Notes under the pieces: model-generated
What the model saw: only the letters and a program-made list of their open reading frames with translations
The model's database searches: none
What the model was told of the DNA's origin: nothing
In this document: positions 1,732 to 60,691 of the stretch, piece after piece
Position numbering within the stretch: position 1 is the stretch's first letter
Layout: the number at the start of each line of letters is the position of its first letter
NCBI GenBank assembly: GCA_016204045.1
Contig: JACQLQ010000001.1
Span: 193,579-257,578, forward strand
Origin: Parcubacteria group bacterium
GTDB taxonomy: Bacteria > Patescibacteriota > Minisyncoccia > Phycocordibacterales > UBA2135
Length of the DNA: 64,000 nucleotides
Direction: 5' to 3'
Made by a program: the position numbers and the translations under genes

Positions 1732-1965
1732 ATGCACACTGCCACGGTTACGCGACGCCACAAACCGACACCTGCCCAACTCGACGCGCAAGCGACGGGT
1801 TTCCTCATGTCCAACGGCTGCACCCCTGATGGTCGCCGCTTGGGCGAGTCACCGGATCCAGCACAGCGGGTGTTCGAACGCTGCTTGGTCCCGGTCGCCA
1901 TCGTTCGGGTTCCCGTCGAACGGCAGTGGCCGCCGGCTCTGTCGGTAGCGTTGCAAGCGGCCTAG
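1732..1965 (+). CDS. hypothetical small Arg/Pro/Ala-rich protein of about 78 aa in a GC-rich insert
   Basis: GGAAGGAG Shine-Dalgarno 5 nt before the ATG at 1732. The ORF ends just before a GC hairpin. Local GC is far above the window average and there is no recognisable domain. Confidence 0.3.
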   Translation: MHTATVTRRHKPTPAQLDAQATGFLMSNGCTPDGRRLGESPDPAQRVFERCLVPVAIVRVPVERQWPPALSVALQAA

Positions 1966-1977
1966 CACCGCTTCGGG

Positions 1978-2083: not shown

Positions 2084-2482
2084 GGGGGATGATCGGCTTC
2101 GACAAGGGGCGTACTTTGAAACGCGCAGGTAGAGCCGGGGTAACTCTTTAAAAGGCCCCAAACCACAAGTGCAAACAAATTGCGCTCAATCGTTTCTCCT
2201 TACTTTAAGGCGAACGACTTTGCGTTCGTGTACGCTTAAGCGACGAACGTGAACGCTCTCACTTTTGATTTCTGGTAGATGGATGAGAGTGTTATACCAC
2301 CAGGATAGGCAAACGACTCGTTCCGATCGTTTCGCTGAAACCAAGGAGCTCGATGCAGTTCGATTTTGTATCTTTCATACGATCTGCATTTAAATCCGTC
2401 ACATGACGGACTGAAAAATACTAAACCTGTAGATCCGTTTTAAACAACTCTTTGCACGCGGGTTCGATTCCCGCCATCTCCA
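2084..2482 (+). ncRNA. ssrA: tmRNA (ssrA)
   Basis: The 5' end GGGGGAUGAUCGGCUUCGACAAGGG matches the tmRNA consensus GGGGcUGAUUcuGGaUUCGACgGG. The 3' end GCGGGUUCGAUUCCCGCCAUCUCCA is a tRNA-Ala-like T-arm and acceptor. The gene sits next to smpB. Putative tag reading frame GCG AAC GAC TTT GCG TTC GTG TAC GCT TAA at 2210-2239. Confidence 0.85.
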
Positions 2483-2901: not shown

Positions 2902-3087
2902 GATAGCGAAGCGTCCCGTAATCTCCACTCAACAAAAATGAGCTCGCCACAAGCGGGCCATTTTTGTTGAGTGAAAAATGATGATAAAGAAAGCACCAGA
3001 AGTGTTTGCGAATTGCCGATCGCTATTGATTTTTTTGGAGGAGCTGGTAATCTTCCGATAGATTGATATGGGGTTTCTAGAGAAAAA

Positions 3088-4706: not shown

Positions 4707-5555
4707 ATGTGCATCTCGATGGCTAAGGCAGATTTCAGAGGTACGAAGATTTGCATCAATGCGACGAGAATGCCCAATGAGGGCATCGTGCACGTGCTCA
4801 TGTACCAGAACGAAGTTGCGAACTTGGGTGTCGGACCCAATGCCATGTTGCTTCACATTCCTGCCGAGGGTATCGGCCAGAGGAATTTCATTGACACGCG
4901 CAAATTCAGCAGCATCATGGACGACATGGTTACTGCAGTAACGCCACGGTCTCGTGATAGCGGCGCGAAGAGCATGGGCTTTTCGAGGGTGGGTGGAAGC
5001 CGTGTGCAAGTGTTTGATGTCGGTATCTACACCATCATCCTTGCTGAAAAGGCCTCCGACATTCCTGCAGCGCTCAACCGTGTGCCGCAAGGGAAGCGCC
5101 CGAAAGTGAACAGGGAGCTCTTTGCGTTCTACGAACAGGCCTTCCCGGGGTATGCCGTCGCCTTGTGTTGTTTCAACAATCAAAGGTCGGTTAAGGCAGA
5201 GCCCATCATGGTGTGGTACAAGCCCCTGAAGAACACGGACGGCATGTACCGATTCCCGGCAATCGACTGCCACACGGGTGGAGTGCCCGATCTTACCGCC
5301 GATGTCGAGGTTGACCACTGGCTCTTCCTTGCCGCGGACGGGATGCGCGGCGGTAGCCACGTCACCTACAGTGAGGCGGCGGCGATTAAGCCTGAGGTTC
5401 ACCAGCTTCTCCCGAAGCGCGTCTACGGCGCGTACTTCCGTGGACCGAGGCGGAACGGCGACTTCGGCGTTAGGCAGCCCGAAGATTTGAGCTCCTTTGG
5501 TTCGAACGACGCGGTACTGCGTCTTCCGCCTCCCGGGTTCAGGGTAGCGGCGTAA
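4707..5555 (+). CDS. hypothetical protein (282 aa) beginning MC-. Possible N-terminal-nucleophile (Cys2) hydrolase, which is speculative
   Basis: GAGAGGAG Shine-Dalgarno 8 nt before the ATG. Better protein-like composition than the overlapping minus-strand ORF. GC-rich cassette ending at a terminator. Confidence 0.5.
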   Translation: MCISMAKADFRGTKICINATRMPNEGIVHVLMYQNEVANLGVGPNAMLLHIPAEGIGQRNFIDTRKFSSIMDDMVTAVTPRSRDSGAKSMGFSRVGGSRVQVFDVGIYTIILAEKASDIPAALNRVPQGKRPKVNRELFAFYEQAFPGYAVALCCFNNQRSVKAEPIMVWYKPLKNTDGMYRFPAIDCHTGGVPDLTADVEVDHWLFLAADGMRGGSHVTYSEAAAIKPEVHQLLPKRVYGAYFRGPRRNGDFGVRQPEDLSSFGSNDAVLRLPPPGFRVAA

Positions 5556-12078: not shown

Positions 12079-14052
12079 TTGTTGTACAATGCTTTTATGC
12101 AAAGTAAGGAGAAAAATAAAGGCCAAAAGATAGGCAAAAGGATACTAAAGGGGGTCAAGGATGGTAGCAAGAGCCTGTCGCCAAGGCAGGGCTTTTTCGG
12201 TAATCTCCTCACGACCTTTGTCATTCTCCTCATGATTATTTTGGCGACCTCTCTTTTTATAACAGGGGAAAACAAAACAGAAGAAATCGCCATCTCCCAA
12301 GTTGCCAAAGATATTCAGGCGGGGGCTGTGACAAAAGTTGTTGTTGAGGGAGAAGAGATCACGCTCACATACAAAGACGAGACTATCAGAAAATCAAAAA
12401 AGGAACGCGAAACAGCGCTTTCAGAGACACTTGCTAATTACGGAGTCACCACAAAAGAGCTCGCTACTATCGAGGTTGAAATCAAAAAAGAATCGGGCTT
12501 TCTCTTTTGGCTCCTCCAAGTAGCACCTTTCCTGTTGCCACTCATACTTATTGTCATTTTCTTCTGGTACGTCTCGCGTCAGGTGAAGGGGGCTGGCATG
12601 CAGGCATTTACCTTTGGCCAATCAAAGGCGCGGATGATTGATCCAGACGACAAAGCGCAACGCGTGCTCTTCAAAGATGTTGCCGGGGTAAAAGAGGCCA
12701 AACATGAACTCGAAGAAGTCGTAGACTTCTTGAGGAGTCCGAAAAAATTCCTCGACATTGGTGCGCGCATTCCCAAGGGCGTGCTCCTCATGGGTGCTCC
12801 AGGCACAGGCAAGACCATGCTCGCGCGTGCAGTTGCGGGTGAAGCAAAGGTGCCCTTTTTCTCCATCTCCGGTTCAGAATTTGTAGAAATGTTTGTCGGT
12901 GTCGGTGCTTCTCGAGTACGAGATCTCTTTAAGTTGGCAAAGAAAGTTGCTCCCGCAATTGTTTTTATCGATGAGATCGACGCAGTCGGGCGCATCCGCG
13001 GTACGGGAATGGGTGGTGGGCATGACGAGCGCGAGCAGACACTGAACCAGATTCTAGTTGAGATGGACGGCTTTGAACCAAACGAGAAGGTGATCGTGAT
13101 GGCCGCAACCAACCGACCAGATGTGCTTGACCCGGCACTCCTTCGTCCTGGTCGTTTCGATCGTCGCGTAATTCTCGACCTCCCCGATGTACATGATCGT
13201 GAAGCGATCTTGAAAATCCATGCAGAAAAAAAGCCACTTGCAGAAGACGTGAACCTCCACGTGATTGCCGAACGCACCCCGGGCTTCTCTGGAGCAGATC
13301 TCTATTCGCTTATGAACGAAGGAGCTATTCTCGCTGCGCGTCATGACAGAAAGACAGTGACACAGCACGACCTTATTCGATCCATCGAAAAGGTCATGTT
13401 GGGACCGGAACGCCAAAGCCACCTCCTTACAAAGAAAGAAAAAGAAATCACTGCATATCACGAAGCGGGTCATGCGCTCGTCGCTTCAGTACTTCCCTAC
13501 GCAGACCCTGTGCACAAGATTTCTATTGTTTCGCGTGGACATGCTGGTGGGTACACGTTGAAGCTTCCCCTCGAAGAAAGGCGTCTTCAGTCACGTCGCG
13601 AATTTCTTGATGATATTGCCGTCTCGCTCGGTGGATACGTTGCCGAAGAGATGATCTTTGGTGATATAACAACTGGGCCGTCTAACGACCTTCAGGTTGG
13701 GTCCGCACTTGCTCGTGACATGGTTACAAAGTATGGCATGTCAGACGGATTGGGTGCCGTGGCTTATGAAGAATCGGGTGGCCGTTCATACTTAGGTCGT
13801 GCGCGCGGAAGCGCCGATCGAGAATATTCCGAAGATATTTCTGCAAAGATCGATAGAGAAGTCGCCAAAATCGTTGACAACGCCTTACAACAGGTGAAAG
13901 ATCTTTTGGGGGAACACCGGAAAGTATTGGAGTCCATCGCTCAAGAACTTATTCGGGTTGAGACGCTTGAACGTGCTGAATTTGAATCTCTCCTCCGCAA
14001 GCACGGCATAGAACCTAAAAGAAAAGTTGAGGTGGTGGCAGAAACAAAGTAG
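12079..14052 (+). CDS. ftsH: ATP-dependent zinc metalloprotease FtsH
   Basis: Walker [12 protein letters not shown] region, HEAGHALV zinc site, N-terminal TM anchors. Confidence 0.95.
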
Positions 14053-14087
14053 TATAAAGAAGGCTAAAGGCTCTTACGGCTTAAGCC

Positions 14088-14313
14088 CGACCCGTAGCTC
14101 AATTGGTTAGAGCACAGAGCTTCCAATGTCGAGCGAGGATGACAAAAACGAATACATGTGCCCGTAGCTCAATTGGTTAGAGCACAGAGCTTATACCTCT
14201 GCGGTTCCTGGTTCGAGTCCAGGCGGGCACACATTTGTTTTTGTCCCGAGCGAAGGCATTATATCAGTTTGTGATATACTCTGCGGTTCCTGGTTCGAGT
14301 CCAGGCGGGTCGA
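14088..14313 (+). tRNA. tRNA-like gene A, interrupted in the anticodon loop by a 152-nt insert (14126-14277) that contains a complete tRNA. If spliced at the canonical 37/38 position the anticodon would be UCC (Gly)
   Basis: 5' half at 14088-14125 with acceptor cgacccg. 3' half at 14278-14313 with acceptor cgggtcg, the exact reverse complement. D-arm, anticodon stem and T-arm are identical to the nested tRNA. Confidence 0.4.
14158..14231 (+). tRNA. tRNA with anticodon UAU (Ile, AUA-reading), nested inside the locus above
   Basis: Acceptor gtgcccg/cgggcac. D-arm gctc-aattggtta-gagc. Anticodon stem cagag/ctctg with loop cTTATac. T-arm cctgg-ttcgagt-ccagg. Discriminator A. Confidence 0.8.
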
Positions 14314-14322
14314 TTCATAATC

Positions 14323-15240
14323 ATGCGTTCTGTATTTGAGAAAAACGGTATAACGTGGGTAAAGATCACTGAACCCGGGAAGGGCGACTTTAAGTTTATA
14401 AAAAATCTCTTTCCTTTTCACCCCCTTGTTATCGAATCCATTGAAACGCCAACACTTCATCCGGCGCTAGAAAAATACAAGGATCACTTATTCCTTATCC
14501 TCCACTTCCCGATCATCTACAGAGACCAATCGAAAAATAAGGCGGTTGAAGTAGACTTTCTCATCACTAAGAACGCGCTTGTAACGTTGACGTACGAGTC
14601 GCACCCCCAACTCGACGAACTGTTTAAGAAATTTCAGAAAGATGAGGAGTGGCAAAATGAGCTCCTCGGGGATAACACGGGGAAGCTTGTCCACGGCATT
14701 ATTGAGTGGCTCATGAAGTCACTCTTGAGTGACCTCGATTTCCTTGAAGAGACGGTGACGGACATCGAAGACCGTATCTTTGACGAGAAGCATGCCTCAA
14801 TCATTGAAGAAATCTCAAACGCAAGGCGCGACATACTTGATTTTCGTCGGGTGACTGCCCCACACCAAACGATTCTAAAGCAACTTTTACCGCAGGTGGC
14901 GAAAGAGTTTTATGGTGCCGAGATGGAACCATACTTCGTCGACCTTGCGAGAAATGAAAGTAAAATTAGGCACTTGATTGAAAACCATAAGGAAACTATT
15001 GAGGCTTTGCACGCCACAAACGAGTCGCTCACCTCTAACCGAGTCTCTAAGATTGTGACCCTTCTTACTATATTTTCAACCATCATTTTGCCACTTAACT
15101 TCATGGCCTCACTTTGGGGAATGAATCATGAGTTCTTGCCGCTTCGGGACGGGCCTTATGATTTTTGGGTCCTTCTAGGATTGATGCTCCTCATCGGGTC
15201 AACGCTCATTTTCTATTTCCGCTACAAGAAATGGTTGTAA
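14323..15240 (+). CDS. corA: CorA-family Mg2+/Co2+ transporter
   Basis: GMN signature (LWGMNHEF) and two C-terminal TM helices ending YFRYKKWL. Confidence 0.85.
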   Translation: MRSVFEKNGITWVKITEPGKGDFKFIKNLFPFHPLVIESIETPTLHPALEKYKDHLFLILHFPIIYRDQSKNKAVEVDFLITKNALVTLTYESHPQLDELFKKFQKDEEWQNELLGDNTGKLVHGIIEWLMKSLLSDLDFLEETVTDIEDRIFDEKHASIIEEISNARRDILDFRRVTAPHQTILKQLLPQVAKEFYGAEMEPYFVDLARNESKIRHLIENHKETIEALHATNESLTSNRVSKIVTLLTIFSTIILPLNFMASLWGMNHEFLPLRDGPYDFWVLLGLMLLIGSTLIFYFRYKKWL

Positions 15241-17432: not shown

Positions 17433-19955
17433 ATGTCTCTTGCTCTATCTAAAAAAGTCTTAGCCCTCCTAATTCTTTCTGTTGGGCTATTTGCAAGTTT
17501 CGGAATGATTGCCTTTGCTGCGGCGCAGGACTCCTCAATCTCCCTCAAGAAAGATGAAAGCAGCGGTTTCTACACTCTTACCTTGAGAGACCCCGACGGT
17601 ATCCAGGAATTTTCGATGAATCCCGCGAAGGGGTCATCGTACGGAGGTGGGCTTGGCGGCTGCCCAAGATCTTTTAGCAGCAACAACATCGCGGTATTTA
17701 ATGATCTCTCATTTGATCCTGCGATGCCAGCGTACATTATTGACTGTGCCAACAATACCACCAAGCTTGAAATTGGAGCCCCAAAGAACGGCATCGCATC
17801 AAGTAAAATTGTAAAAGAGGAGCCCAAAGAAGATGTCGTCTCTTCTAAAGCGGTAGAACAAAAAGAGGACAAGAAGAGCAATGAGGGTTCGTTAGGAAAC
17901 GTAACATTCCCAGTCAGAGAGTTAGGTAACTGCAAAAACGAAGGAGACTGTCGGACGTATTGCGATAATGCAGACCACGCACGTGAGTGTCTCGCCTTTG
18001 CGAAAAAGCACCAACTTATTTCCGAAGATGAGGAGAAAGACGCCAAGGAAAAGTTTTTGAATGTTCAAAACGGCCCCGGCGGTTGCAACTCGTGGTCTTC
18101 ATGTGAGGCGTATTGTAGCAGTATAGACCGCTTGGACGAATGCATCGCCTTTGCGGAAAAAATGGGGCATGCAGACGAAAAGATACAAGAGGCAAAGAAA
18201 ATTCAGGCATTAGTCAAAAGTGGTAAGCAGTTCCCTGGAGGCTGTAAAGACAGAAACTCCTGCGAGCTTTACTGCGCTGATGTCAACCACATGGACGAGT
18301 GTATCGCTTTTGCGGAAGACGCGGGCTTTATGCCGGAAGAAGAGTTGAGGCAGGCAAAAAAGATATTGCCACTTATGAAGCGTGGGGAAACACCAGGAGG
18401 GTGTACATCAAAGGAGCAATGTGAGAAGTATTGTGAAGCAGAAGGCCATCTTGATGAATGTATAGCCTTTGCAGAAAAAGCAGATCTTCTCTCTGCTGAT
18501 GAAAAAGAAATGATTCGAAAAACCGGCGGCAAAGGGCCAGGGGGCTGTAAGGGCAAAAAGCAGTGTGAGGCATATTGCGAAGCCAACGGTGAGGAATGTT
18601 TTAAGTGGGCACAGGCGAACGGCGTTATGAAAGAAGAGGATTTGGCACGGATGCGAGAGGGGACAGACCGTTTCAGAAAGGAACTTGAGCGAATGCCTCC
18701 CGAGGTTGTCTCGTGTCTGAAGGAAAACATGGGTGAAGAGAACTTCAGCAAAATGTCGAGTGGTGAACCGGTGTTTGACCGCTCACTCGAAGGCAAGATG
18801 AAGGGATGCTTCAGCCAGTTAACTAAGCAAGTGGGTCAACAGCTCAATTCACTTCCACCAGAAGCAGCCGAATGTATCAAAGAAACAGTGGGCGAAGACG
18901 GATTGCGGAAACTTCAGGGTGGTGAGTTTGACCCAACCAAAACTGACTTCAGTGAATTAGAGGGTTGCTTCCAGAAATTACAGGAATCATTTGGCGGACC
19001 CGGAGGATTCGGCGGCCCAGGCGGATGCAAGACACGTGAAGAGTGTGAGGCGTATTGTGAGGAGCATGGTGAAGAATGCCAAGGGTTCGGCCCCCCAGGC
19101 GGTGGTCCCGGAGGTGATTTCCGCGGCGGTGGCCCGGGTGGTTTTTCAGGCCCTGGTGGTTGTACCTCGATAGAGGAGTGTACAAGCTATTGCCAGTCAA
19201 ATCTAGAAGAATGTGAAAAGTTTATGCCGCCTTCGGGAGCTCCCGGAGGGGAGAGGCGCGGCGAAGAGCACCGAGAGTTTCCTGGTGGCGGGGCGACTGA
19301 AGAGCAATTCCCTGGTAGAGGGAGAACTGGCGGTGAGTTCCCCGGTGGGCCAGGAGGATGCAAGACAAAGGAAGAATGTCAACGCGTTTGTGAAGAACAC
19401 CCCGAAGAGTGTCGAGGCTTTAGTGGCGGAGTAGGTGGAGAGGGGAGATTAGACAGCATTCCGCCGCAAGGTAATTCACAAAAGCCGTTTGAACAACCCG
19501 GAAGCGATGAATATCGCAAGCAATACGAAGAGCAGTACAAGGCACAATATCAAAAACAATACGAAGGGCAGTTTGAAGGACGACCGCGAGAGCTCCCAAT
19601 GGAACCTCCGCACAGGGAAGGAGTTGAGATCCAGCAAGAGCAATATCAGAGACAATATGAGGAGCAATACAAAGCGGAGTATCAGAAACAGTTTGAGCAA
19701 CAGCAACAGTATCAATATCAACAAAACACACTGCCGTCACCAGAACCAACCCATCAGGATGTACCAGTGTATCAACAGTACCAACAACCTCCGCAGTCAT
19801 CTGAAACTCAGCAATATTACAAAACAGATGAAGTGAATTTTGTGCCGCCTCCCGCTTCAACCCAAGGGGGAGCAGTGCGGCTCTACCGGGCTCCCAGAGG
19901 GTCACTCTACGAAAATACCAATCAACTCCTCAAGGGTTTTTCTCCTAGTCAATAA
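17433..19955 (+). CDS. secreted cysteine-rich repeat protein (840 aa) of unknown family
   Basis: Signal peptide MSLALSKKVLALLILSVGLFASFGMIAFAAAQ. At least 8 modules matching GGC-x5-C-x2-YC-x5-9-EC. Gly/Pro-rich linkers. C-terminal Q/Y/E-rich low-complexity tail. Confidence 0.8.
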   Translation: MSLALSKKVLALLILSVGLFASFGMIAFAAAQDSSISLKKDESSGFYTLTLRDPDGIQEFSMNPAKGSSYGGGLGGCPRSFSSNNIAVFNDLSFDPAMPAYIIDCANNTTKLEIGAPKNGIASSKIVKEEPKEDVVSSKAVEQKEDKKSNEGSLGNVTFPVRELGNCKNEGDCRTYCDNADHARECLAFAKKHQLISEDEEKDAKEKFLNVQNGPGGCNSWSSCEAYCSSIDRLDECIAFAEKMGHADEKIQEAKKIQALVKSGKQFPGGCKDRNSCELYCADVNHMDECIAFAEDAGFMPEEELRQAKKILPLMKRGETPGGCTSKEQCEKYCEAEGHLDECIAFAEKADLLSADEKEMIRKTGGKGPGGCKGKKQCEAYCEANGEECFKWAQANGVMKEEDLARMREGTDRFRKELERMPPEVVSCLKENMGEENFSKMSSGEPVFDRSLEGKMKGCFSQLTKQVGQQLNSLPPEAAECIKETVGEDGLRKLQGGEFDPTKTDFSELEGCFQKLQESFGGPGGFGGPGGCKTREECEAYCEEHGEECQGFGPPGGGPGGDFRGGGPGGFSGPGGCTSIEECTSYCQSNLEECEKFMPPSGAPGGERRGEEHREFPGGGATEEQFPGRGRTGGEFPGGPGGCKTKEECQRVCEEHPEECRGFSGGVGGEGRLDSIPPQGNSQKPFEQPGSDEYRKQYEEQYKAQYQKQYEGQFEGRPRELPMEPPHREGVEIQQEQYQRQYEEQYKAEYQKQFEQQQQYQYQQNTLPSPEPTHQDVPVYQQYQQPPQSSETQQYYKTDEVNFVPPPASTQGGAVRLYRAPRGSLYENTNQLLKGFSPSQ
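17928..19420 (+). repeat. array of at least 8 degenerate coding repeats, each about 135-150 nt, the 4-Cys module of the gene above
   Basis: Recurring CxxYC...DEC-IAFAE / EEC peptide pattern at 17940, 18085, 18245, 18405, 18545, 19025, 19165 and 19355. Confidence 0.7.
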
Positions 19956-57435: not shown

Positions 57436-57506
57436 TGCGGGGACGGGAGTCGAACCCGCTACCTCAAGGTTATGAGCCTCGTGTGCAACCGTTACACTTC
57501 CCCGCG
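57436..57506 (-). tRNA. tRNA-Met (CAU), probably the initiator (C1-A72 mismatch, A73)
   Basis: Reverse complement reads CGCGGGG...CGAGG-cuCAUaa-CCUUG...CGGG-uucgacu-CCCG-CCCCGCA. Compact D-arm. No encoded CCA. Confidence 0.6.
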
Positions 57507-57588
57507 ATCAATGTCTTTTTATACCATAATTGTACGTCGTTTGCAATTGCTCGTGTTTATCAAGGCTCGGGCATGCTGACCAGGCATC

Positions 57589-59484
57589 TTGACTTTTCTC
57601 GTTTATTCCACTATAGTTTTTTGGGGCAACATGCTCCAGAGAGGAGTATACGGAATGTACTTTTGGATCTACGGCGTTCTCGCTGCAGTTCTCACATTCG
57701 TAGGGTTCGCACTTGCTGACCCTGAATCAAAGTCTGATAGAGTCTGGATTCCTATTGTTGCTGGTATTTTCTTTGGCTTGCTTGGCTGGCTCTTTATGCC
57801 AGTCTTCGCCTGGAACTTCTACGAGAATTGGATCTTGCTCCTACTTCTCGGCGTCTGTCTTGTTGTCGGAGTGTATGGGAGACGCGGTAGTTATGAGGAG
57901 GAAGTCTCTAAGTTTGCACTTGTGCTGATTGGCTTAGCCGCCATGGGGATTATGGTGATAATGCCACTCACGACTTGGAGCTTGCTACATGCTGATAGCT
58001 ATCGCAAACTCCTCGGTACGCCTGTCGAAAGCCAGTTCAGTGCAGATGTTTCCCCGGTCGACAGCACCCAGTATCGCATTGTCGATGCCGGGTATGCTCT
58101 CCAGATTGGCAACAAACGCGTCGAAGGAGTTCCTGGACTAGGTTCACGTGTCGACCTCGACACGCTGACCATCCAAAGAGTCAACGGCTGCTTCAGTGTA
58201 CTTGATGATGAGGGCGTTGAGGAAGAGCTCTGCTTCAACGATAAGCTCGTTTGGGTAGGTCCTCTTGCACACTCAGGGTTCTTCAAGTGGTGGGCGAACA
58301 ATGTCACCCCTGGCTATGTCATGGTGAGTGCGACTGATCCATCAAACGTCCATCTGGTTACGGCGATTAAGCCGCATACTTCTATGGTCGCCAGTGGGCG
58401 TACAGAGCCGGCAAGGATGGGCACTCCCGTCACTCGTCCGAATGGATACACCGATCTTGCCATTCGCTACTTCCACAAGGGTGGATACTTTGGTGACTAT
58501 ATCGTTCGGCACTTGCGCACGAATGGCTACGCATCGATGGGGTTGATAGACTATGTTTTCGAGATTGATGACAATGGTCGCCCATACTGGGTCGTCACCA
58601 AGTTCGAGCGGAGAGTTGGATTCAGCGGCGAGGATACGGTCGGCGTCGTCGTGATTGACGCCCAAACGGGTGAGATCAGCGATTATTCTCTCGCAAATAC
58701 GCCTGCGTGGGTTGATCGCATGCAGCCGGAAGACATCGTGACCGCGCAGCTCGACAATTGGGGAGACTTTGTCCATGGCTTTTGGAATGCCCTCTTCGCG
58801 AAACGTGACGTGGTAGAGACTACTCCTGGTATGGAGTTGGTCTACGGCGCCGATGGCAAAGCCTACTGGTATTCGGGCATACAGTCGGGGTCTGGTTCTG
58901 CCCAAGCGACGAACAGCTTTGTGATGGTGAATGCTCGTACAAAAGAAGTTCGCCGTTACATGGTTGCTGGCGCAAGCGAGCAGGCAGCGCAGGCTTCGGC
59001 ACAGAACGCAAAGGGCGTTCGCGAGGCTGGGTTTACGGCCTCATCCCCGATTCTCTACAATGTTGGCGGCGAGCCCACGTATTTCATGCCCCTAAAGGGT
59101 GGTGATGGGCTCGTGAAGATGTTTGCGTTCGTAAGTGTTGCAAACTATGAAGTGACGGGTGTCGGCCGCACTGTCCCAGAAGCGCTTCGGGATTACCAAG
59201 TTGCGCTCGTGAACCGCGGCAGAAATGTCCGCATTGATGATGTAGTGCAGCGTAAGCGCATCGAGACGTTTGTGGTAGCGGTCGCCAAAGAGGGTGACTT
59301 CTATTACCTTCGCCTTGAGGGTCAAGTTGGCCAGGAGTTCTTCGCGTCATCCAACGTGAGCCCGGAGCTCAAGTGGACGATGGTTGGTCACGCTGTGGTG
59401 ATTGAGGTTGATGTCGGAGAATCGCCCAGTGTTCCCATTGTGCGATTCGACAACAAAGATCTTGCCATCTCGACCTTTAATTAA
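57589..59484 (+). CDS. large membrane-anchored protein (4 N-terminal TM helices plus an extracytoplasmic domain of about 450 aa), hypothetical
   Basis: Long ORF, no recognisable domain. The real start may be 57633. Confidence 0.6.
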   Translation: MTFLVYSTIVFWGNMLQRGVYGMYFWIYGVLAAVLTFVGFALADPESKSDRVWIPIVAGIFFGLLGWLFMPVFAWNFYENWILLLLLGVCLVVGVYGRRGSYEEEVSKFALVLIGLAAMGIMVIMPLTTWSLLHADSYRKLLGTPVESQFSADVSPVDSTQYRIVDAGYALQIGNKRVEGVPGLGSRVDLDTLTIQRVNGCFSVLDDEGVEEELCFNDKLVWVGPLAHSGFFKWWANNVTPGYVMVSATDPSNVHLVTAIKPHTSMVASGRTEPARMGTPVTRPNGYTDLAIRYFHKGGYFGDYIVRHLRTNGYASMGLIDYVFEIDDNGRPYWVVTKFERRVGFSGEDTVGVVVIDAQTGEISDYSLANTPAWVDRMQPEDIVTAQLDNWGDFVHGFWNALFAKRDVVETTPGMELVYGADGKAYWYSGIQSGSGSAQATNSFVMVNARTKEVRRYMVAGASEQAAQASAQNAKGVREAGFTASSPILYNVGGEPTYFMPLKGGDGLVKMFAFVSVANYEVTGVGRTVPEALRDYQVALVNRGRNVRIDDVVQRKRIETFVVAVAKEGDFYYLRLEGQVGQEFFASSNVSPELKWTMVGHAVVIEVDVGESPSVPIVRFDNKDLAISTFN

Positions 59485-59542
59485 GTTTTTGACTATCGCT
59501 AGCCGTTCGGGTTATCCCGGCGGCTTTTTTATGCACACATAG

Positions 59543-59570
59543 TTGACCCTTGGGGAGACGTGTGTAGAAT
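59543..59570 (+). promoter_or_regulatory. sigma70-like promoter TTGACC-N16-TAGAAT driving the tRNA array
   Basis: -35 box at 59543-59548 and -10 box at 59565-59570, about 70 nt upstream of the first tRNA. Confidence 0.5.
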
Positions 59571-59642
59571 TGTATACTGATACGAGGGCAGGGGGTCCGA
59601 TTCAAACCGGACAGGTCGCGGGCACACCCCCCACCAAAACAG

Positions 59643-59714
59643 CCCGGAGTAGCTCAGTGGTAGAGCATCTCACTCATAAAGAGAAGGTCGTGAGTTCGAT
59701 CCTCACCTCCGGGA
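59643..59714 (+). tRNA. tRNA with anticodon CAU (elongator Met or lysidine-type Ile2; 1:72 paired)
   Basis: Acceptor cccggag/ctccggg. D-arm gctc-agtggta-gagc. Loop cuCAUaa. T-arm gtgag-ttcgatc-ctcac. Discriminator A. Confidence 0.75.
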
Positions 59715-59833
59715 CAAGAAGAAGATGTTATTTGGTGTGGGGGGTGTGAAATCCCCGTCACCGTCATAAAAAAGAACGCTGGACGAGTCTATGAAATCAG
59801 AGTAAGCTATGTAAACGTGTAAAGTGTAGTCAT

Positions 59834-59908
59834 GCGGGTGTGGTGTAGCCTGGTTAACACATCCCCCTGTCACGGGGAAGATCGTGGGTTCAAATCCCAT
59901 CGCCCGCG
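59834..59908 (+). tRNA. tRNA-Asp (GUC)
   Basis: Acceptor gcgggtg/cgcccgc. Anticodon stem tcccc/gggga with loop cuGUCac. T-loop ttcaaat. Discriminator G. Confidence 0.85.
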
Positions 59909-59915
59909 CATAGAC

Positions 59916-59950
59916 AAAAACCGCCCCGACGTTACGTCGGGGCGGTTTTT
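59916..59950 (+). terminator. intrinsic terminator (aaaaaccgccccgacg-ttac-gtcggggcggttttt)
   Basis: 11-bp GC stem followed by a T-run, after tRNA-Asp. Confidence 0.8.
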
Positions 59951-59989
59951 GCGTAATCGCTGAAAATCGCATATTATGATGAGGTCGCC

Positions 59990-60061
59990 GCCGGAGTAGT
60001 TCAGTGGTAGAACGCCATCTTGGTAAGATGGAGGTCGAGGGTTCGATTCCCTCCTCCGGCT
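59990..60061 (+). tRNA. tRNA-Thr (GGU)
   Basis: Acceptor gccggag/ctccggc. Anticodon stem ccatc/gatgg with loop uuGGUaa. T-arm gaggg-ttcgatt-ccctc. Discriminator U. Confidence 0.85.
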
Positions 60062-60143
60062 TTGATTGAAAGGGTATTCCATCCCAAAATGACGACCACT
60101 TTTAGAGTTTGATATTGGTCGCCGATTCGGGTATAATGAGGAG

Positions 60144-60566
60144 ATGCCAAACCCAAAGAAACCCAGGGAAGACTGTTTAAACTGCGGAGAAGAGACTGCT
60201 CGTGCAGGATATAAGTACTGCAGCAATAAATGTCAGCATGCGTATCAGTATGAAAAATATATCAAAAAATGGAAGGCTGGAGAGGTGGGTGGTTTAATTA
60301 ACATCGGAGTAGTTTCCACTCATGTAAAAAAGTACTTGCGGAAAAAGTTTGGAAATAAGTGTTGCTTGTGCGGATGGGCAAAAGTTAATCCAAAAAGCAG
60401 GCTAGTTCCCCTGGTTGCTGATCATATAGATGGCAATTGGCGGAACAATAAAGAGACCAACTTGCGTCTTTTGTGCCCCAATTGTGATTCTCTAACTCCA
60501 ACGTATGCTGCACTAAACATAGGGCGTGGAAGGAATGGCCGAGCGTTGAGTAAGCGCGCAAAATAA
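60144..60566 (+). CDS. HNH endonuclease with an N-terminal Cys4 zinc finger
   Basis: The protein contains CLNCGEE followed by CSNKCQ, followed by an HNH core CCLCGW...DHIDGNWRNN...LRLLCPNC. Confidence 0.75.
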   Translation: MPNPKKPREDCLNCGEETARAGYKYCSNKCQHAYQYEKYIKKWKAGEVGGLINIGVVSTHVKKYLRKKFGNKCCLCGWAKVNPKSRLVPLVADHIDGNWRNNKETNLRLLCPNCDSLTPTYAALNIGRGRNGRALSKRAK

Positions 60567-60580
60567 GCCCGTAAACTGCT

Positions 60581-60609
60581 TTCCCGTAATAGATAAAGTA
60601 GGCTATAAT
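60581..60609 (+). promoter_or_regulatory. TATAAT -10 box (60604-60609) with a weak TTCCCG -35, 10 nt upstream of tRNA-Thr(CGU)
   Basis: Sequence ggcTATAATgcaagtt followed by the tRNA. Confidence 0.35.
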
Positions 60610-60618
60610 GCAAGTTGC

Positions 60619-60691
60619 GCCAGAGTAGCTCAGTTGGTAGAGCGGACGCTTCGTAAGCGTCAGGCCGTCGGTTCAATCCCGACCTCTGGCT
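60619..60691 (+). tRNA. tRNA-Thr (CGU)
   Basis: Acceptor gccagag/ctctggc. D-arm gctc-agttggta-gagc. Loop uuCGUaa. T-arm gtcgg-ttcaatc-ccgac. Confidence 0.85.

What the first reader, a model, noticed from the sequence alone, without database searches (positions are those of the whole stretch)
14088..14313. A complete tRNA(UAU) gene nested inside the anticodon loop of a second, split tRNA-like gene with co-varying acceptor stems
Directly visible in the sequence. The segment has this layout:
- 14088-14125: a tRNA 5' half (acceptor, D-arm, anticodon 5' stem, loop nucleotides cttcca).
- 14126-14157: a 32-nt spacer.
- 14158-14231: a complete canonical tRNA with anticodon UAU.
- 14232-14277: a 46-nt spacer.
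- 14278-14313: a tRNA 3' half (a + ctctg anticodon 3' stem, variable loop, T-arm, acceptor, discriminator A).

The outer halves and the inner tRNA share two perfect blocks. Block one is 14091-14122 = 14161-14192 (32 nt). Block two is 14279-14309 = 14197-14227 (31 nt). The acceptor stems differ. The outer gene has cgacccg/cgggtcg and the inner has gtgcccg/cgggcac. All three changed base pairs are compensated in both halves, so the outer halves have been kept mutually complementary.

A 13-bp helix (14141-14153 gacaaaaacgaat with 14233-14245 atttgtttttgtc, one G-U) clamps the two spacers together. If RNase P and RNase Z excise the inner tRNA, the outer halves remain base-paired. Joining at the canonical 37/38 position would give the loop cuUCCaa, i.e. 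tRNA-Gly(UCC). Other junctions would give UCA or UUA.

The insert is too short for a group I intron. I know of no described precedent for a tRNA inside a tRNA intron in bacteria. Possibilities are a novel split or intron-containing tRNA matured by the tRNA-processing machinery plus an RNA ligase, a tRNA-derived regulatory RNA, or a recent segmental duplication. The compensated stem argues against pure decay. The UAU anticodon on the inner tRNA (AUA-reading, avoiding the lysidine system) is also uncommon.
Basis: seen in the sequence. Interest (0 to 1): 0.92.

Follow-up and report, generated by a model that had tools for sequence, protein, structure and literature searches.

The report
A tRNA nested inside a tRNA
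A tRNA-Ile(UAU) gene in this ultra-small (Patescibacteria) bacterium is split in its anticodon loop by a 152-base folded insert that carries a second, complete copy of the same tRNA; the layout recurs in two other genomes, is missing from the closest relatives, and matches no described kind of tRNA intron.

Summary
Window 14088-14313 is a tRNA 5' half, a spacer, a complete tRNA-Ile(UAU), a spacer and a tRNA 3' half, with exact 32-nt and 31-nt repeats and three compensated acceptor pairs.

It is not an assembly artefact or a one-off duplication. Two other Patescibacteria assemblies (L004, L017) carry the same layout with homologous spacers. The three fold as a cloverleaf inside a cloverleaf: 18 pairs change on both sides, against 0-3 in slid controls.

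The closest relatives of the window (L018) and of L004 (L029, and the more distant L002) have one ordinary tRNA-Ile(UAU) at the same place. The outer gene is therefore an interrupted tRNA-Ile(UAU).

The three outer loops differ (CUUCCAA, CUUAUGG, CCUAUCA), and positions 37/38 pair with the insert and covary.

My best reading, partly inferred, is an intron-like intervening sequence that supplies its own replacement tRNA. Only the inner tRNA decodes. The outer halves appear to be kept paired so that they do not compete with the inner tRNA during folding.

How the insert arose and spreads is unknown. I found no published precedent.

The parts
14088..14124 (+). Outer 5' half. It comprises the acceptor 5' strand CGACCCG (14088-14094), the D-arm (14097-14113), the anticodon-stem 5' strand CAGAG (14115-14119) and 5 unpaired loop remnants CUUCC (14120-14124).
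   Evidence: Sequence. Exact 32-nt repeat with the inner tRNA. It sits where the single tRNA-Ile(UAU) of relative L018 sits. Its pairs are in the consensus fold.
14125..14157 (+). Left spacer. It comprises the P1 5' strand AAUG (14125-14128, which includes former loop positions 37/38), the GA-rich module UCGAGCGAGGAU (14129-14140), the P2 5' strand GACAAAAACGAAU (14141-14153) and the linker ACAU.
   Evidence: The motif G-Y-GAGGAU is shared with L004 and L017.
14158..14231 (+). Inner, complete tRNA-Ile(UAU), acceptor GTGCCCG/CGGGCAC, discriminator A, no encoded CCA. It is the only canonical tRNA in the unit.
   Evidence: ARAGORN; Rfam tRNA at 71 bits. The acceptor is identical to that of the single tRNA in relative L018.
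14232..14259 (+). Right spacer, first part. It comprises the P2 3' strand AUUUGUUUUUGUC (14233-14245), the GA-rich module CCGAGCGAAGG (14246-14256) and the P1 3' strand CAU(U) (14257-14260).
   Evidence: The motif CGARCGAAGRCA is found only in the three nests among all held sequence.
14260..14278 (+). P3 hairpin UAUAUCA-GUUUG-UGAUAUA, directly abutting the outer anticodon-stem 3' strand. Together with P1 and the outer anticodon stem it forms a three-way junction.
   Evidence: Fold. The equivalent hairpins are CAUAUC/GAUAUG in L004 and GAUAC/GUAUC in L017.
14279..14313 (+). Outer 3' half. It comprises the anticodon-stem 3' strand CUCUG, the variable loop, the T-arm (14289-14305), the acceptor 3' strand CGGGUCG (14306-14312) and discriminator A (14313).
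   Evidence: Exact 31-nt repeat with the inner tRNA. All 7 outer acceptor pairs form. P(outer acceptor) = 0.99 in the ensemble.

Best explanation
The locus is a tRNA-Ile(UAU) gene interrupted in its anticodon loop by a 152-nt structured intervening sequence. The tip of that insert carries a second, intact tRNA-Ile(UAU).

**Shown:**
- The unit exists in at least three Patescibacteria genomes, with homologous spacers.
- It is absent from the closest relatives, which have one plain tRNA-Ile(UAU) at the same place.
- It folds on the tRNA-sense strand as a cloverleaf inside a cloverleaf. From outside in: outer acceptor, D, anticodon-stem and T arms; a three-way junction; helix P1; a GA-rich internal-loop module; a leader-trailer helix P2 that stacks on the inner acceptor stem; and hairpin P3.

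**Inferred:**
- The whole 226 nt is made as one transcript from the promoter of the interrupted gene.
- The inner tRNA is cut out by the ordinary tRNA end-processing enzymes (RNase P, 3' trimming, CCA addition), possibly after a double-strand-specific cut in the stalk. It is the only decoding product.
- The outer halves are not rejoined into a decoding tRNA.
- The outer halves are nevertheless under selection to stay paired with each other and to differ from the inner acceptor. Otherwise the upstream copy of the 5' half would capture the inner 3' half while the RNA is being made.
- The patchy distribution, the fixed insertion site and the conserved internal motifs suggest an intron-like or intervening-sequence-like element. 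It can be gained and lost, and it is tolerated because it brings its own replacement copy of the gene it interrupts. How it moves is unknown.
For: **Recurrence**
- L004 (NCBI MAG CAYNRJ010000001.1) and L017 (JGI contig Ga0070686_100064720) have the same order of parts.
- The left distance from the outer CAGAGC to the inner tRNA is the same or nearly the same (41, 41, 40 nt). The right spacers are 47, 47 and 45 nt.
- All three share the motifs G-Y-GAGGAU and CCGA-R-CGAAG.

**Structure**
- RNAalifold gives a nested cloverleaf.
- 93.9% of cells are paired, against 29-47% when partners are slid.
- 18 pairs change on both sides, against 0-3 when slid and a mean of 7.3 in shuffles (0 of 500 shuffles reach 18).
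- G-U pairs in the rod place the structure on the tRNA-sense strand.
- Single-sequence folds have z-scores of -4.5, -6.4 and -5.0.

**Presence/absence among relatives**
- L018 (FtsH 92% identical) has a 119-nt intergenic region with one tRNA, against 270 nt in the window. The flanks are 70-88% identical right up to the tRNA.
- L029 (malic enzyme 85% identical to L004) and L002 have a plain tRNA behind the same -10 box.
- Only 1 of 15 loci from an unbiased 29-mer scan is nested. Two further fetches gave no usable locus: L019, whose tRNA is not adjacent to ftsH, and L031, which has no tRNA.
- None of the 6 distinct syntenic relatives that carry a tRNA-Ile(UAU) at the expected place is nested: L018, L020/21, L022-24, L025-28, L030 and L032.

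**Outer halves are not a decoding tRNA**
- The loops are variable, and positions 37/38 are recruited into P1 and covary.
- The joined outer halves of L004 are not called as a tRNA.

**Selection on the outer halves**
- In the window, differences fall 9/21 in acceptor plus loop and 0/53 elsewhere (p = 2.7e-6). The neighbouring intergenic and coding DNA is about 22% diverged from L018.
- In L004 the outer D-arm has become a perfect 6-bp hairpin, and pair 6-67 is U-A where the inner has C-G.

**Interference model**
- In all three nests, the natural nascent RNA (outer 5' half, left spacer and inner tRNA) is predicted to form the inner acceptor stem with P = 1.00, 0.94 and 0.87.
- If the outer 5' acceptor strand is made identical to the inner one, the predicted fold switches to outer-5'/inner-3' mispairing with P = 0.97-0.99.

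**No mobile-element genes nearby**
-.
Against: - There are only three examples. One of them (L017) was found with a pattern designed to find nests, so the covariation statistics rest on very few sequences.
- There are no RNA data. Processing, the absence of ligation and the fate of the outer pieces are all inferred.
- The interference argument rests on equilibrium thermodynamic predictions without kinetics or tertiary structure.
- **A puzzle for a simple 'foreign cassette inserted into the native gene' history:** in the window and in L004, it is the inner tRNA that matches a relative's single tRNA. The window's inner acceptor equals that of L018. The L004 inner tRNA equals the L002 tRNA at 74 of 74 positions. 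The outer halves, which lie next to the native flanks, are the divergent ones. The L004 outer 3' half equals the L017 3' halves at 35 of 35. This needs either rapid selected divergence of the outer stems, or recombination among related alleles. I could not tell which.
- No mechanism of mobility is visible: no ORF, no ribozyme hit, no clear target-site duplication.
- Conserved sequence motifs in the rod (not only pairing) hint at recognition by some factor. That could mean the outer RNA has a function of its own.
Confidence: 0.5

Rival explanations
1. True intron. After the inner tRNA is excised, the outer halves are trimmed and ligated into a second functional tRNA, which would be tRNA-Gly(UCC) in the window.
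For:
- CUUCCAA is a well-formed 7-nt loop.
- The outer stems are kept complementary.
- The insert lies at or next to the canonical 37/38 site.
Against: - The outer loops are CUUCCAA, CUUAUGG and CCUAUCA, so no anticodon is conserved and L017 has lost U33.
- Positions 37/38 pair with the spacer and covary.
- The joined outer halves of L004 are not a tRNA.
- The orthologous gene in L018 is tRNA-Ile(UAU), not Gly.
- There is no bulge-helix-bulge motif and no group I core.
- From known enzymology, RNase P and RNase Z leave 3'-OH and 5'-phosphate ends plus 30-47 nt of spacer on each half, which RtcB cannot join.
- From textbook identity rules, the window's outer acceptor and discriminator do not fit the bacterial glycine determinants.
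Confidence: 0.05
2. The outer part is a functional RNA in its own right. After the inner tRNA is released, the two remaining pieces (~70 and ~82 nt) stay annealed as a two-piece tRNA-like molecule: acceptor, T and D arms plus a long GA-rich arm. This molecule would be used as a tRNA mimic, a processing scaffold or a protein-binding RNA.
For: - The spacers keep sequence motifs, not only pairing: G-Y-GAGGAU and CCGA-R-CGAAG.
- The outer acceptor, D and T arms are kept paired, with compensated changes.
- The L004 outer D-arm was remodelled into a perfect hairpin rather than decaying.
- The outer acceptor is predicted to form with P = 0.76-0.99.
Against: - Close relatives lack it entirely, so any function is dispensable.
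- The outer acceptor sequence, first base pair and loop remnant are not conserved.
- No Rfam family matches.
- L017 has a C-A mismatch and L004 an A-G mismatch in the outer acceptor.
Confidence: 0.2
3. Neutral relic. A rare rearrangement or duplication produced the nest, and intragenic gene conversion between the repeated halves keeps their interiors identical while the edges drift. There is no selection on the RNA and no mobility.
For: - All outer-versus-inner differences in the window and in L017 lie at the edges of the repeated blocks. That is where conversion tracts would fail.
- The body of tRNA-Ile(UAU) is nearly invariant across the phylum anyway: 15 genomes share the 29-mer.
Against: - Three of three changed acceptor pairs in the window are exactly compensated.
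- P1, the rod, P2 and P3 covary among the three nests.
- The spacers are homologous in lineages whose host genes are far apart. This requires long persistence under constraint, or transfer.
- In L004 the outer and inner 5' halves are too different for conversion, yet still form stems.
Confidence: 0.12
4. Scar of a tRNA-targeting integrative element (phage or genomic island) whose att sites duplicate part of the tRNA gene.
For: From established knowledge, integrases commonly target the anticodon-loop region of tRNA genes and leave direct repeats of the tRNA 3' part.
Against: - Both halves are duplicated, in nested rather than flanking order.
- The insert is 152 nt, with no integrase or other mobile-element gene within about 10 kb.
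- Gene order around the tRNA is identical in L018, which lacks the insert.
- The sequence just 5' of the outer 3' half is a hairpin, not an anticodon stem-loop remnant.
Confidence: 0.04
5. Assembly artefact: a repeat-induced chimera of two strain variants of the tRNA gene.
For: - The window contains 31-32-nt exact repeats that can confuse short-read assemblers.
- An independent k=31 (Logan) contig of the same CorA gene stops inside the outer 3' half.
- I could not inspect reads.
Against: - The same architecture occurs in two other assemblies from other projects.
- In L004 the outer and inner copies share no exact run long enough to misjoin.
- A chimera would not create spacers that pair with each other, covary between genomes and share motifs.
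Confidence: 0.02

Closest known systems
Group I introns in tRNA anticodon loops of Patescibacteria and other bacteria (Nakagawa et al. 2026, PMC13011429)
   Same: Same phylum and same kind of host gene. The insertion lies in the anticodon loop, the distribution among relatives is patchy, and standard tRNA finders miss the interrupted gene.
   Different: Only about 78 nt of the insert is not tRNA, which is too small for a group I core. There is no Rfam group I hit even at permissive thresholds and no conserved 5'-splice U or terminal G. The outer loop is not restored to a conserved anticodon loop. The insert carries a complete tRNA, and that paper does not mention nested, split or tandem tRNA genes in a term search.
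Intervening sequences (IVS) of bacterial 23S/16S rRNA genes, excised by RNase III without re-ligation (own knowledge)
   Same: A short, extended stem-loop inserted at a loop of a structural RNA gene. It is sporadically present among close relatives and is probably removed by ordinary RNases without rejoining the flanks.
   Different: The host here is a tRNA, and a nick in the anticodon loop destroys decoding. Function has to be supplied by the cargo tRNA, and no rRNA IVS is known to carry a gene copy. Cleavage was not tested here.
Archaeal and eukaryal tRNA introns and split tRNA genes (bulge-helix-bulge, EndA plus RtcB), including the archaeal pre-tRNA-Trp intron that contains a box C/D RNA (own knowledge)
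   Same: The position is at or next to 37/38. Intron-exon pairing involves former loop nucleotides, the halves are held together by complementary flanking sequences, and a functional RNA is carried inside a tRNA intron.
   Different: There is no bulge-helix-bulge geometry: the junction has a 5-nt single strand on one side and a hairpin on the other. The host is bacterial, and no splicing endonuclease is known there. The exons do not encode a conserved anticodon loop.
tRNA-targeting integrative elements that carry a replacement for the displaced tRNA segment (own knowledge; Williams 2002)
   Same: The logic of an insertion that is harmless because it brings a copy of what it interrupts. The target is the anticodon-loop region of a tRNA gene.
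   Different: The whole tRNA is carried rather than the 3' part. The insert is 152 nt with no integrase, and the order is nested instead of flanking direct repeats.
Small palindromic insertion elements found inside RNA or protein genes (Rickettsia RPE, Neisseria Correia elements) (own knowledge)
   Same: About 100-150-nt non-coding inserts with inverted-repeat arms that fold into a rod in the transcript. They are patchily distributed and tolerated inside genes.
   Different: Those occur in many copies per genome and carry no tRNA. Here I saw a single copy per genome, always at the same site.

Membership tests
tRNA (Rfam RF00005), inner gene | Cloverleaf covariance-model score above the gathering threshold, with a 7-nt anticodon loop | tested here: met
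   71 bits against 29. ARAGORN calls tRNA-Ile(tat). The L004 and L017 inner genes score 69 and 71 bits.
Intron-containing tRNA gene (outer gene) | Joined exons give a cloverleaf that a tRNA finder accepts | tested here: inconclusive
   Window: yes, tRNA-Gly(tcc) i(39,152). L017: called Ile(tat), but with C33 and a C-A mismatch in the acceptor. L004: not called.
Intron-containing tRNA gene (outer gene) | The anticodon loop (U33, anticodon, purine 37) is conserved among homologous copies | tested here: not met
   The loops are CUUCCAA, CUUAUGG and CCUAUCA. Positions 37/38 pair with the right spacer and covary.
Group I intron | Conserved catalytic core (P3-P9) detectable by Rfam RF00028, and length above about 200 nt | tested here: not met
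   No hit at E<=10 in the window region, and none at E<=1 in L004 or L017. The non-tRNA part of the insert is about 78 nt.
Archaeal-type (bulge-helix-bulge) tRNA intron | Two 3-nt bulges separated by a 4-bp helix at the exon-intron junctions | tested here: not met
   The consensus fold has a 5-nt single strand, a 4-bp P1 and a hairpin that abuts the anticodon stem.
Archaeal-type (bulge-helix-bulge) tRNA intron | A splicing endonuclease and an RtcB-type ligase are encoded in the genome | not testable with these tools
   Only 64 kb of the genome is available, and the source MAG could not be fetched.
tRNA-targeting integrative element (att-site duplication) | An integrase gene next to the tRNA, and a direct repeat of only the 3' part flanking a large insert | tested here: not met
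   The neighbours are HisKA, AlaDH, FtsH, CorA and MFS, in the same order as in L018, which lacks the insert. Both halves are repeated, in nested order.
rRNA-type intervening sequence | An extended stem-loop insert at a loop of a structural RNA gene, present or absent among close relatives | tested here: met
   Rod P1 / GA module / P2. Absent in L018, L029 and L002.
rRNA-type intervening sequence | Excised by RNase III or other RNases without re-ligation of the flanks | not testable with these tools
   Needs RNA end-mapping or in vitro cleavage.
Decaying duplicate (pseudogene) | Differences spread evenly and stems broken at random | tested here: not met
   9/21 against 0/53 (p = 2.7e-6). The outer acceptor has 3 pairs changed on both sides among the three nests, and 90.5% of its cells are paired.

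The most novel reading that the evidence does not exclude
This is a new class of bacterial tRNA intervening element, a 'tRNA within a tRNA'. A small structured cassette invades the anticodon loop of tRNA-Ile(UAU) genes and carries its own replacement tRNA. It would spread among Patescibacteria by an unknown mechanism that needs no protein encoded in the cassette. After the inner tRNA is released, it may also leave a stable two-piece tRNA-like RNA with a function of its own.
Probability: 0.3. Interest if true: 0.9.

Novelty: new variant of a known kind. Interest (0 to 1): 0.78.

Why it matters
- **A possible third kind of interruption in bacterial tRNA genes.** Those genes are thought to be interrupted only by self-splicing group I introns, or rarely group II introns. 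This insert is too small to be a known ribozyme intron and has no archaeal-type splice motif. It avoids the need for splicing by carrying an intact copy of the gene it interrupts.
- **A natural test case for RNA folding.** It shows how a cell copes with two copies of the same RNA halves in one transcript. The compensated divergence of the outer acceptor stem looks like selection against misfolding.
- **Consequences for annotation.** Standard tRNA finders report only the inner gene. Intron-aware modes can mis-call the outer one as a different tRNA, here 'tRNA-Gly(UCC)', which would distort tRNA inventories of Patescibacteria genomes.
- **A possible new mobile element.** If it moves, its target and cargo are the same tRNA.

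Tried and rejected
1. **Viral contigs and phage records.** Two viral-contig scans and a BLAST search of phage records found no nest, only ordinary tRNA similarity.
2. **Spurious ORFs.** I searched 5.8 billion proteins with a chimera of translations through the three nests, hoping to find spurious ORFs that read through other nests. It returned two read-throughs of single tRNAs.
3. **Source contig.** The window's FtsH, and its NCBI cluster representative, are not in the contig index. I therefore could not fetch the rest of the genome to look for RtcB, tRNA-Gly(UCC) or other nests.
4. **Logan contig.** The Logan contig for CorA ends at about window position 14297, inside the outer 3' half. That is not at the exact boundary expected for a k=31 repeat break, so I treat it as uninformative.
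5. **Known motifs in the GA-rich module.** I considered a K-turn, a sarcin-ricin loop, a hammerhead or other small ribozyme, and a Shine-Dalgarno sequence plus ORF.
   - The strand geometry does not fit a canonical K-turn or sarcin-ricin motif.
   - Rfam gives no ribozyme.
   - No reading frame is shared.
6. **Direct repeats as a target-site duplication.** I considered the repeats CGAGCGARG flanking P2 as a target-site duplication around an inverted-repeat element. The repeat is weak in L004 and L017, so I left this open and did not adopt it.
7. **Upstream hairpins in other loci.** L003, L005 and L010 have hairpins upstream of their tRNA (GCCCY...GCGAAGC...AGCGAAGU-RGGGC). I considered them remnants of half-nests. 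They contain no tRNA-half copy and look like lineage-specific leader hairpins.
8. **Promoter or terminator inside the unit.** The consensus scan found none.
Full report
**1. The observation**

Reading 13900-14500 confirms the layout. In order:
- a tRNA 5' half (14088-14125/6);
- a 32-nt spacer;
- a complete tRNA (14158-14231);
- a 46-47-nt spacer;
- a tRNA 3' half (14279-14313).

ARAGORN finds only the inner gene, tRNA-Ile(UAU). Rfam scores it at 71 bits against a 29-bit threshold.

The repeat finder returns the two exact blocks, 14091-14122 = 14161-14192 and 14197-14227 = 14279-14309. It also returns the 13-bp inverted repeat 14141-14153 / 14233-14245. The 29-mer of the tRNA body occurs nowhere else in the window.

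The outer acceptor (CGACCCG/CGGGTCG) differs from the inner one (GTGCCCG/CGGGCAC) at three pairs, all compensated. With long introns allowed, ARAGORN calls the outer gene tRNA-Gly(tcc) with a 152-nt intron.

**2. It is not unique to this window**

A scan of one genome per species for the 29-mer of the tRNA body gave 15 Patescibacteria loci, all tRNA-Ile(UAU). One of them, L004, has the same nested order.

A scan of JGI metagenomes with a pattern for 'anticodon arm ... second 3' half' gave one contig, L017, again with the same order.

The three units align over their full length:
- The distance from the outer CAGAGC to the inner tRNA is 41, 41 and 40 nt.
- The right spacers are 47, 47 and 45 nt.
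- The spacers share G-Y-GAGGAU on the left and CCGA-R-CGAAG on the right. The latter motif occurs only in the three nests among all sequence I held.

In L004 the outer and inner copies are too different to be joined by a repeat-collapse error. Together with three independent assemblies, this makes an artefact very unlikely.

**3. The structure is conserved**

RNAalifold predicts a cloverleaf inside a cloverleaf. From the outside in:
- the outer acceptor, D, anticodon-stem and T arms;
- five unpaired nucleotides left from the outer anticodon loop;
- a 4-bp helix P1, whose 5' strand includes former loop positions 37 and 38;
- a GA-rich module: an asymmetric loop, two pairs G-Y/R-C, tandem G-A/A-G, then G-G/C-C;
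- a leader-trailer helix P2 that stacks on the inner acceptor stem;
- the inner cloverleaf;
- a hairpin P3 that abuts the outer anticodon-stem 3' strand.

Counting pairs on this structure gave the following:

| Measure | Observed | Partners slid | Shuffles |
|---|---|---|---|
| Cells paired | 93.9% | 29-47% | mean 86.7% |
| Pairs changed on both sides | 18 | 0-3 | mean 7.3; 0 of 500 reach 18 |

The covarying pairs are 6 of 14 in the rod, 7 of 17 in P2 plus the inner acceptor, and 3 of 7 in the outer acceptor.

P1 is the clearest case. Loop positions 37/38 pair as AA-UU, GG-CC and CA-UG. Several G-U pairs place the structure on the tRNA-sense strand.

With three sequences these numbers are indicative, not proof.

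**4. What the outer gene is**

The protein search identified the window's source as an NCBI 'Parcubacteria group' MAG, and its nearest relative as one with 92% identical FtsH. That relative is L018. It has the same HisKA-AlaDH-FtsH-tRNA-CorA order, but its intergenic region is 119 nt instead of 270 nt and holds one ordinary tRNA-Ile(UAU). The flanks are 70-88% identical right up to the tRNA on both sides. The difference between the two genomes is thus essentially the 152-nt insert.

Likewise, L002 and L029 are relatives of L004. L029 is the closest, with malic enzyme 85% identical. Both have a plain tRNA-Ile(UAU) behind the same -10 box that precedes the outer 5' half in L004.

The outer gene is therefore an interrupted tRNA-Ile(UAU). 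Its UCC 'anticodon' in the window is a derived state, since L004 and L017 still have UAU there.

Further relatives all have single genes: L020-28, L030 and L032. A check of all 40 tRNAs in the held sequence found half-copies only at the three nests.

**5. Why I reject the splicing-to-Gly idea**

- The three outer loops differ, and one lacks U33.
- Two of the seven loop positions are used for P1 and covary.
- The joined outer halves of L004 are not a tRNA.
- There is no bulge-helix-bulge motif and no group I or ribozyme match at permissive thresholds.
- By known enzymology, RNase P and RNase Z would leave long spacer tails with 3'-OH and 5'-phosphate ends.
- From textbook identity rules, the window's outer acceptor and discriminator fit none of the bacterial glycine identity elements.

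**6. The outer halves are not simply decaying**

In the window, the differences between outer and inner fall 9 of 21 in acceptor plus loop and 0 of 53 elsewhere (p = 2.7e-6). Neighbouring DNA, by contrast, is about 22% diverged from L018.

All three changed acceptor pairs are compensated. In L004 the outer D-arm has been remodelled into a perfect 6-bp hairpin, and pair 6-67 is U-A where the inner has C-G.

One possible reason comes from folding predictions. I modelled the nascent RNA up to the end of the inner tRNA.
- With the natural sequences, the inner acceptor stem forms with P = 1.00, 0.94 and 0.87.
- If the outer 5' acceptor strand is made identical to the inner one, all three switch to outer-5'/inner-3' mispairing (P = 0.97-0.99).

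Divergence of the outer acceptor, with compensation so that the two outer strands still occupy each other, would protect the production of what is presumably the cell's only AUA-reading tRNA. This is an inference from an equilibrium model.

**7. History and mobility: unresolved**

Three features are the usual signature of a mobile intron or an rRNA-type intervening sequence:
- the patchy distribution (1 of 15 in the unbiased scan; absent in each closest relative);
- the fixed insertion site;
- the conserved internal motifs.

No mobility gene lies nearby.

One pattern does not fit a simple 'foreign cassette into native gene' event. The window's inner acceptor equals that of L018, and the L004 inner tRNA equals the L002 tRNA at 74 of 74 positions. 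Meanwhile the L004 outer 3' half equals the L017 3' halves at 35 of 35. In addition, L029, the closest relative of L004, has a T-stem like the L004 outer half.

Several histories could give this, and the data cannot separate them:
- an old nest whose outer stems diverged under selection;
- recombination among related alleles;
- repeated loss by recombination between the repeated blocks, which would leave a single tRNA with the outer acceptor.

The L004 and L017 spacers resemble each other more than either resembles the window's. At a coarse scale, the element therefore tracks its hosts.

**8. Comparison with known systems**

The closest analogues are:
- group I introns in Patescibacteria tRNA genes (PMC13011429), which share the site and phylum but not the core or size;
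- rRNA intervening sequences, which share the stem-loop insert, patchy presence and lack of re-ligation;
- archaeal bulge-helix-bulge introns and split tRNAs, which share the position and the pairing of flanks but not the motif;
- tRNA-targeting integrative elements, which share the logic of carrying a replacement;
- small palindromic insertion elements.

The nest fails the tested defining features of all except the structural half of the intervening-sequence definition.

Full-text searches for nested or intron-borne tRNAs found nothing comparable. The 2026 survey of Patescibacteria tRNA introns has no mention of nested, split or tandem genes.

**9. Verdict**

This is a real, recurrent, structurally conserved 'tRNA inside a tRNA' in Patescibacteria.
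- **Shown:** the anatomy, the recurrence, the conserved fold, the presence/absence among relatives, and the identity of the outer gene.
- **Inferred:** single-transcript expression, release of the inner tRNA by standard enzymes, no rejoining of the outer halves, selection against misfolding, and mobility.

I rate it as a new variant of a known kind (an intervening sequence in a tRNA anticodon loop) and of high interest. I give about a 30% chance that it is a distinct class of element or RNA.

Noticed in passing
L003 ~1925-1966 (+); L005 ~2940-2981 (+); L010 minus strand just upstream of the tRNA (tRNA at 5370-5444): Three single tRNA-Ile(UAU) genes are preceded by a ~30-nt hairpin (GCCCY-GCGAAGC...AGCGAAGU-RGGGC). 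Its 3' strand overlaps the first 2-4 nt of the tRNA. The close relative L008 lacks it at the same place. It may be a leader structure that masks the RNase P site, or another small insertion.
   Followed up: partly
window 2085-2482 (+): tmRNA gene with a long tag peptide, ANKLRSIVSPYFKANDFAFVYA. Relative L019 has ASPYFKASDFAFVHA.
   Followed up: no
window 17433-19955 (+): An 840-aa ORF with many repeats of a Cys-rich unit (...GGC..xxxCExYC....ECIAFAEK...) and a Gln/Tyr/Glu-rich C-terminal tail. No Pfam hit is on record for the identical gene in L001.
   Followed up: no
window 14158-14232 (-); L004 3306-3380 (+); L017 821-894 (-): Rfam family RF04354 (Plastid-ycf2 5'UTR) matches the antisense strand of the tRNA at 37-44 bits, below its 65.7-bit threshold. 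This is evidently tRNA-antisense similarity, not a real element.
   Followed up: yes
L032 2835-3113 (+): A reverse-transcriptase (RVT_1) gene lies about 260 nt from a single tRNA-Ile(UAU) gene in another Patescibacteria MAG. This is probably coincidental, but it is relevant if the nest spreads through an RNA intermediate.
   Followed up: no
window 57436-60691: A cluster of tRNA genes: two CAU-anticodon tRNAs, Asp, Thr(GGU) and Thr(CGU). I did not determine whether either CAU tRNA is a lysidine-type tRNA-Ile. That bears on whether tRNA-Ile(UAU) is the only AUA decoder.
   Followed up: no
L001 position 1 (= window ~14297): The independent Logan (k=31) contig carrying the identical CorA gene from run SRR12113384 ends inside the outer 3' half. 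The same organism is therefore present in that public run, which could be used for read-level checks.
   Followed up: partly
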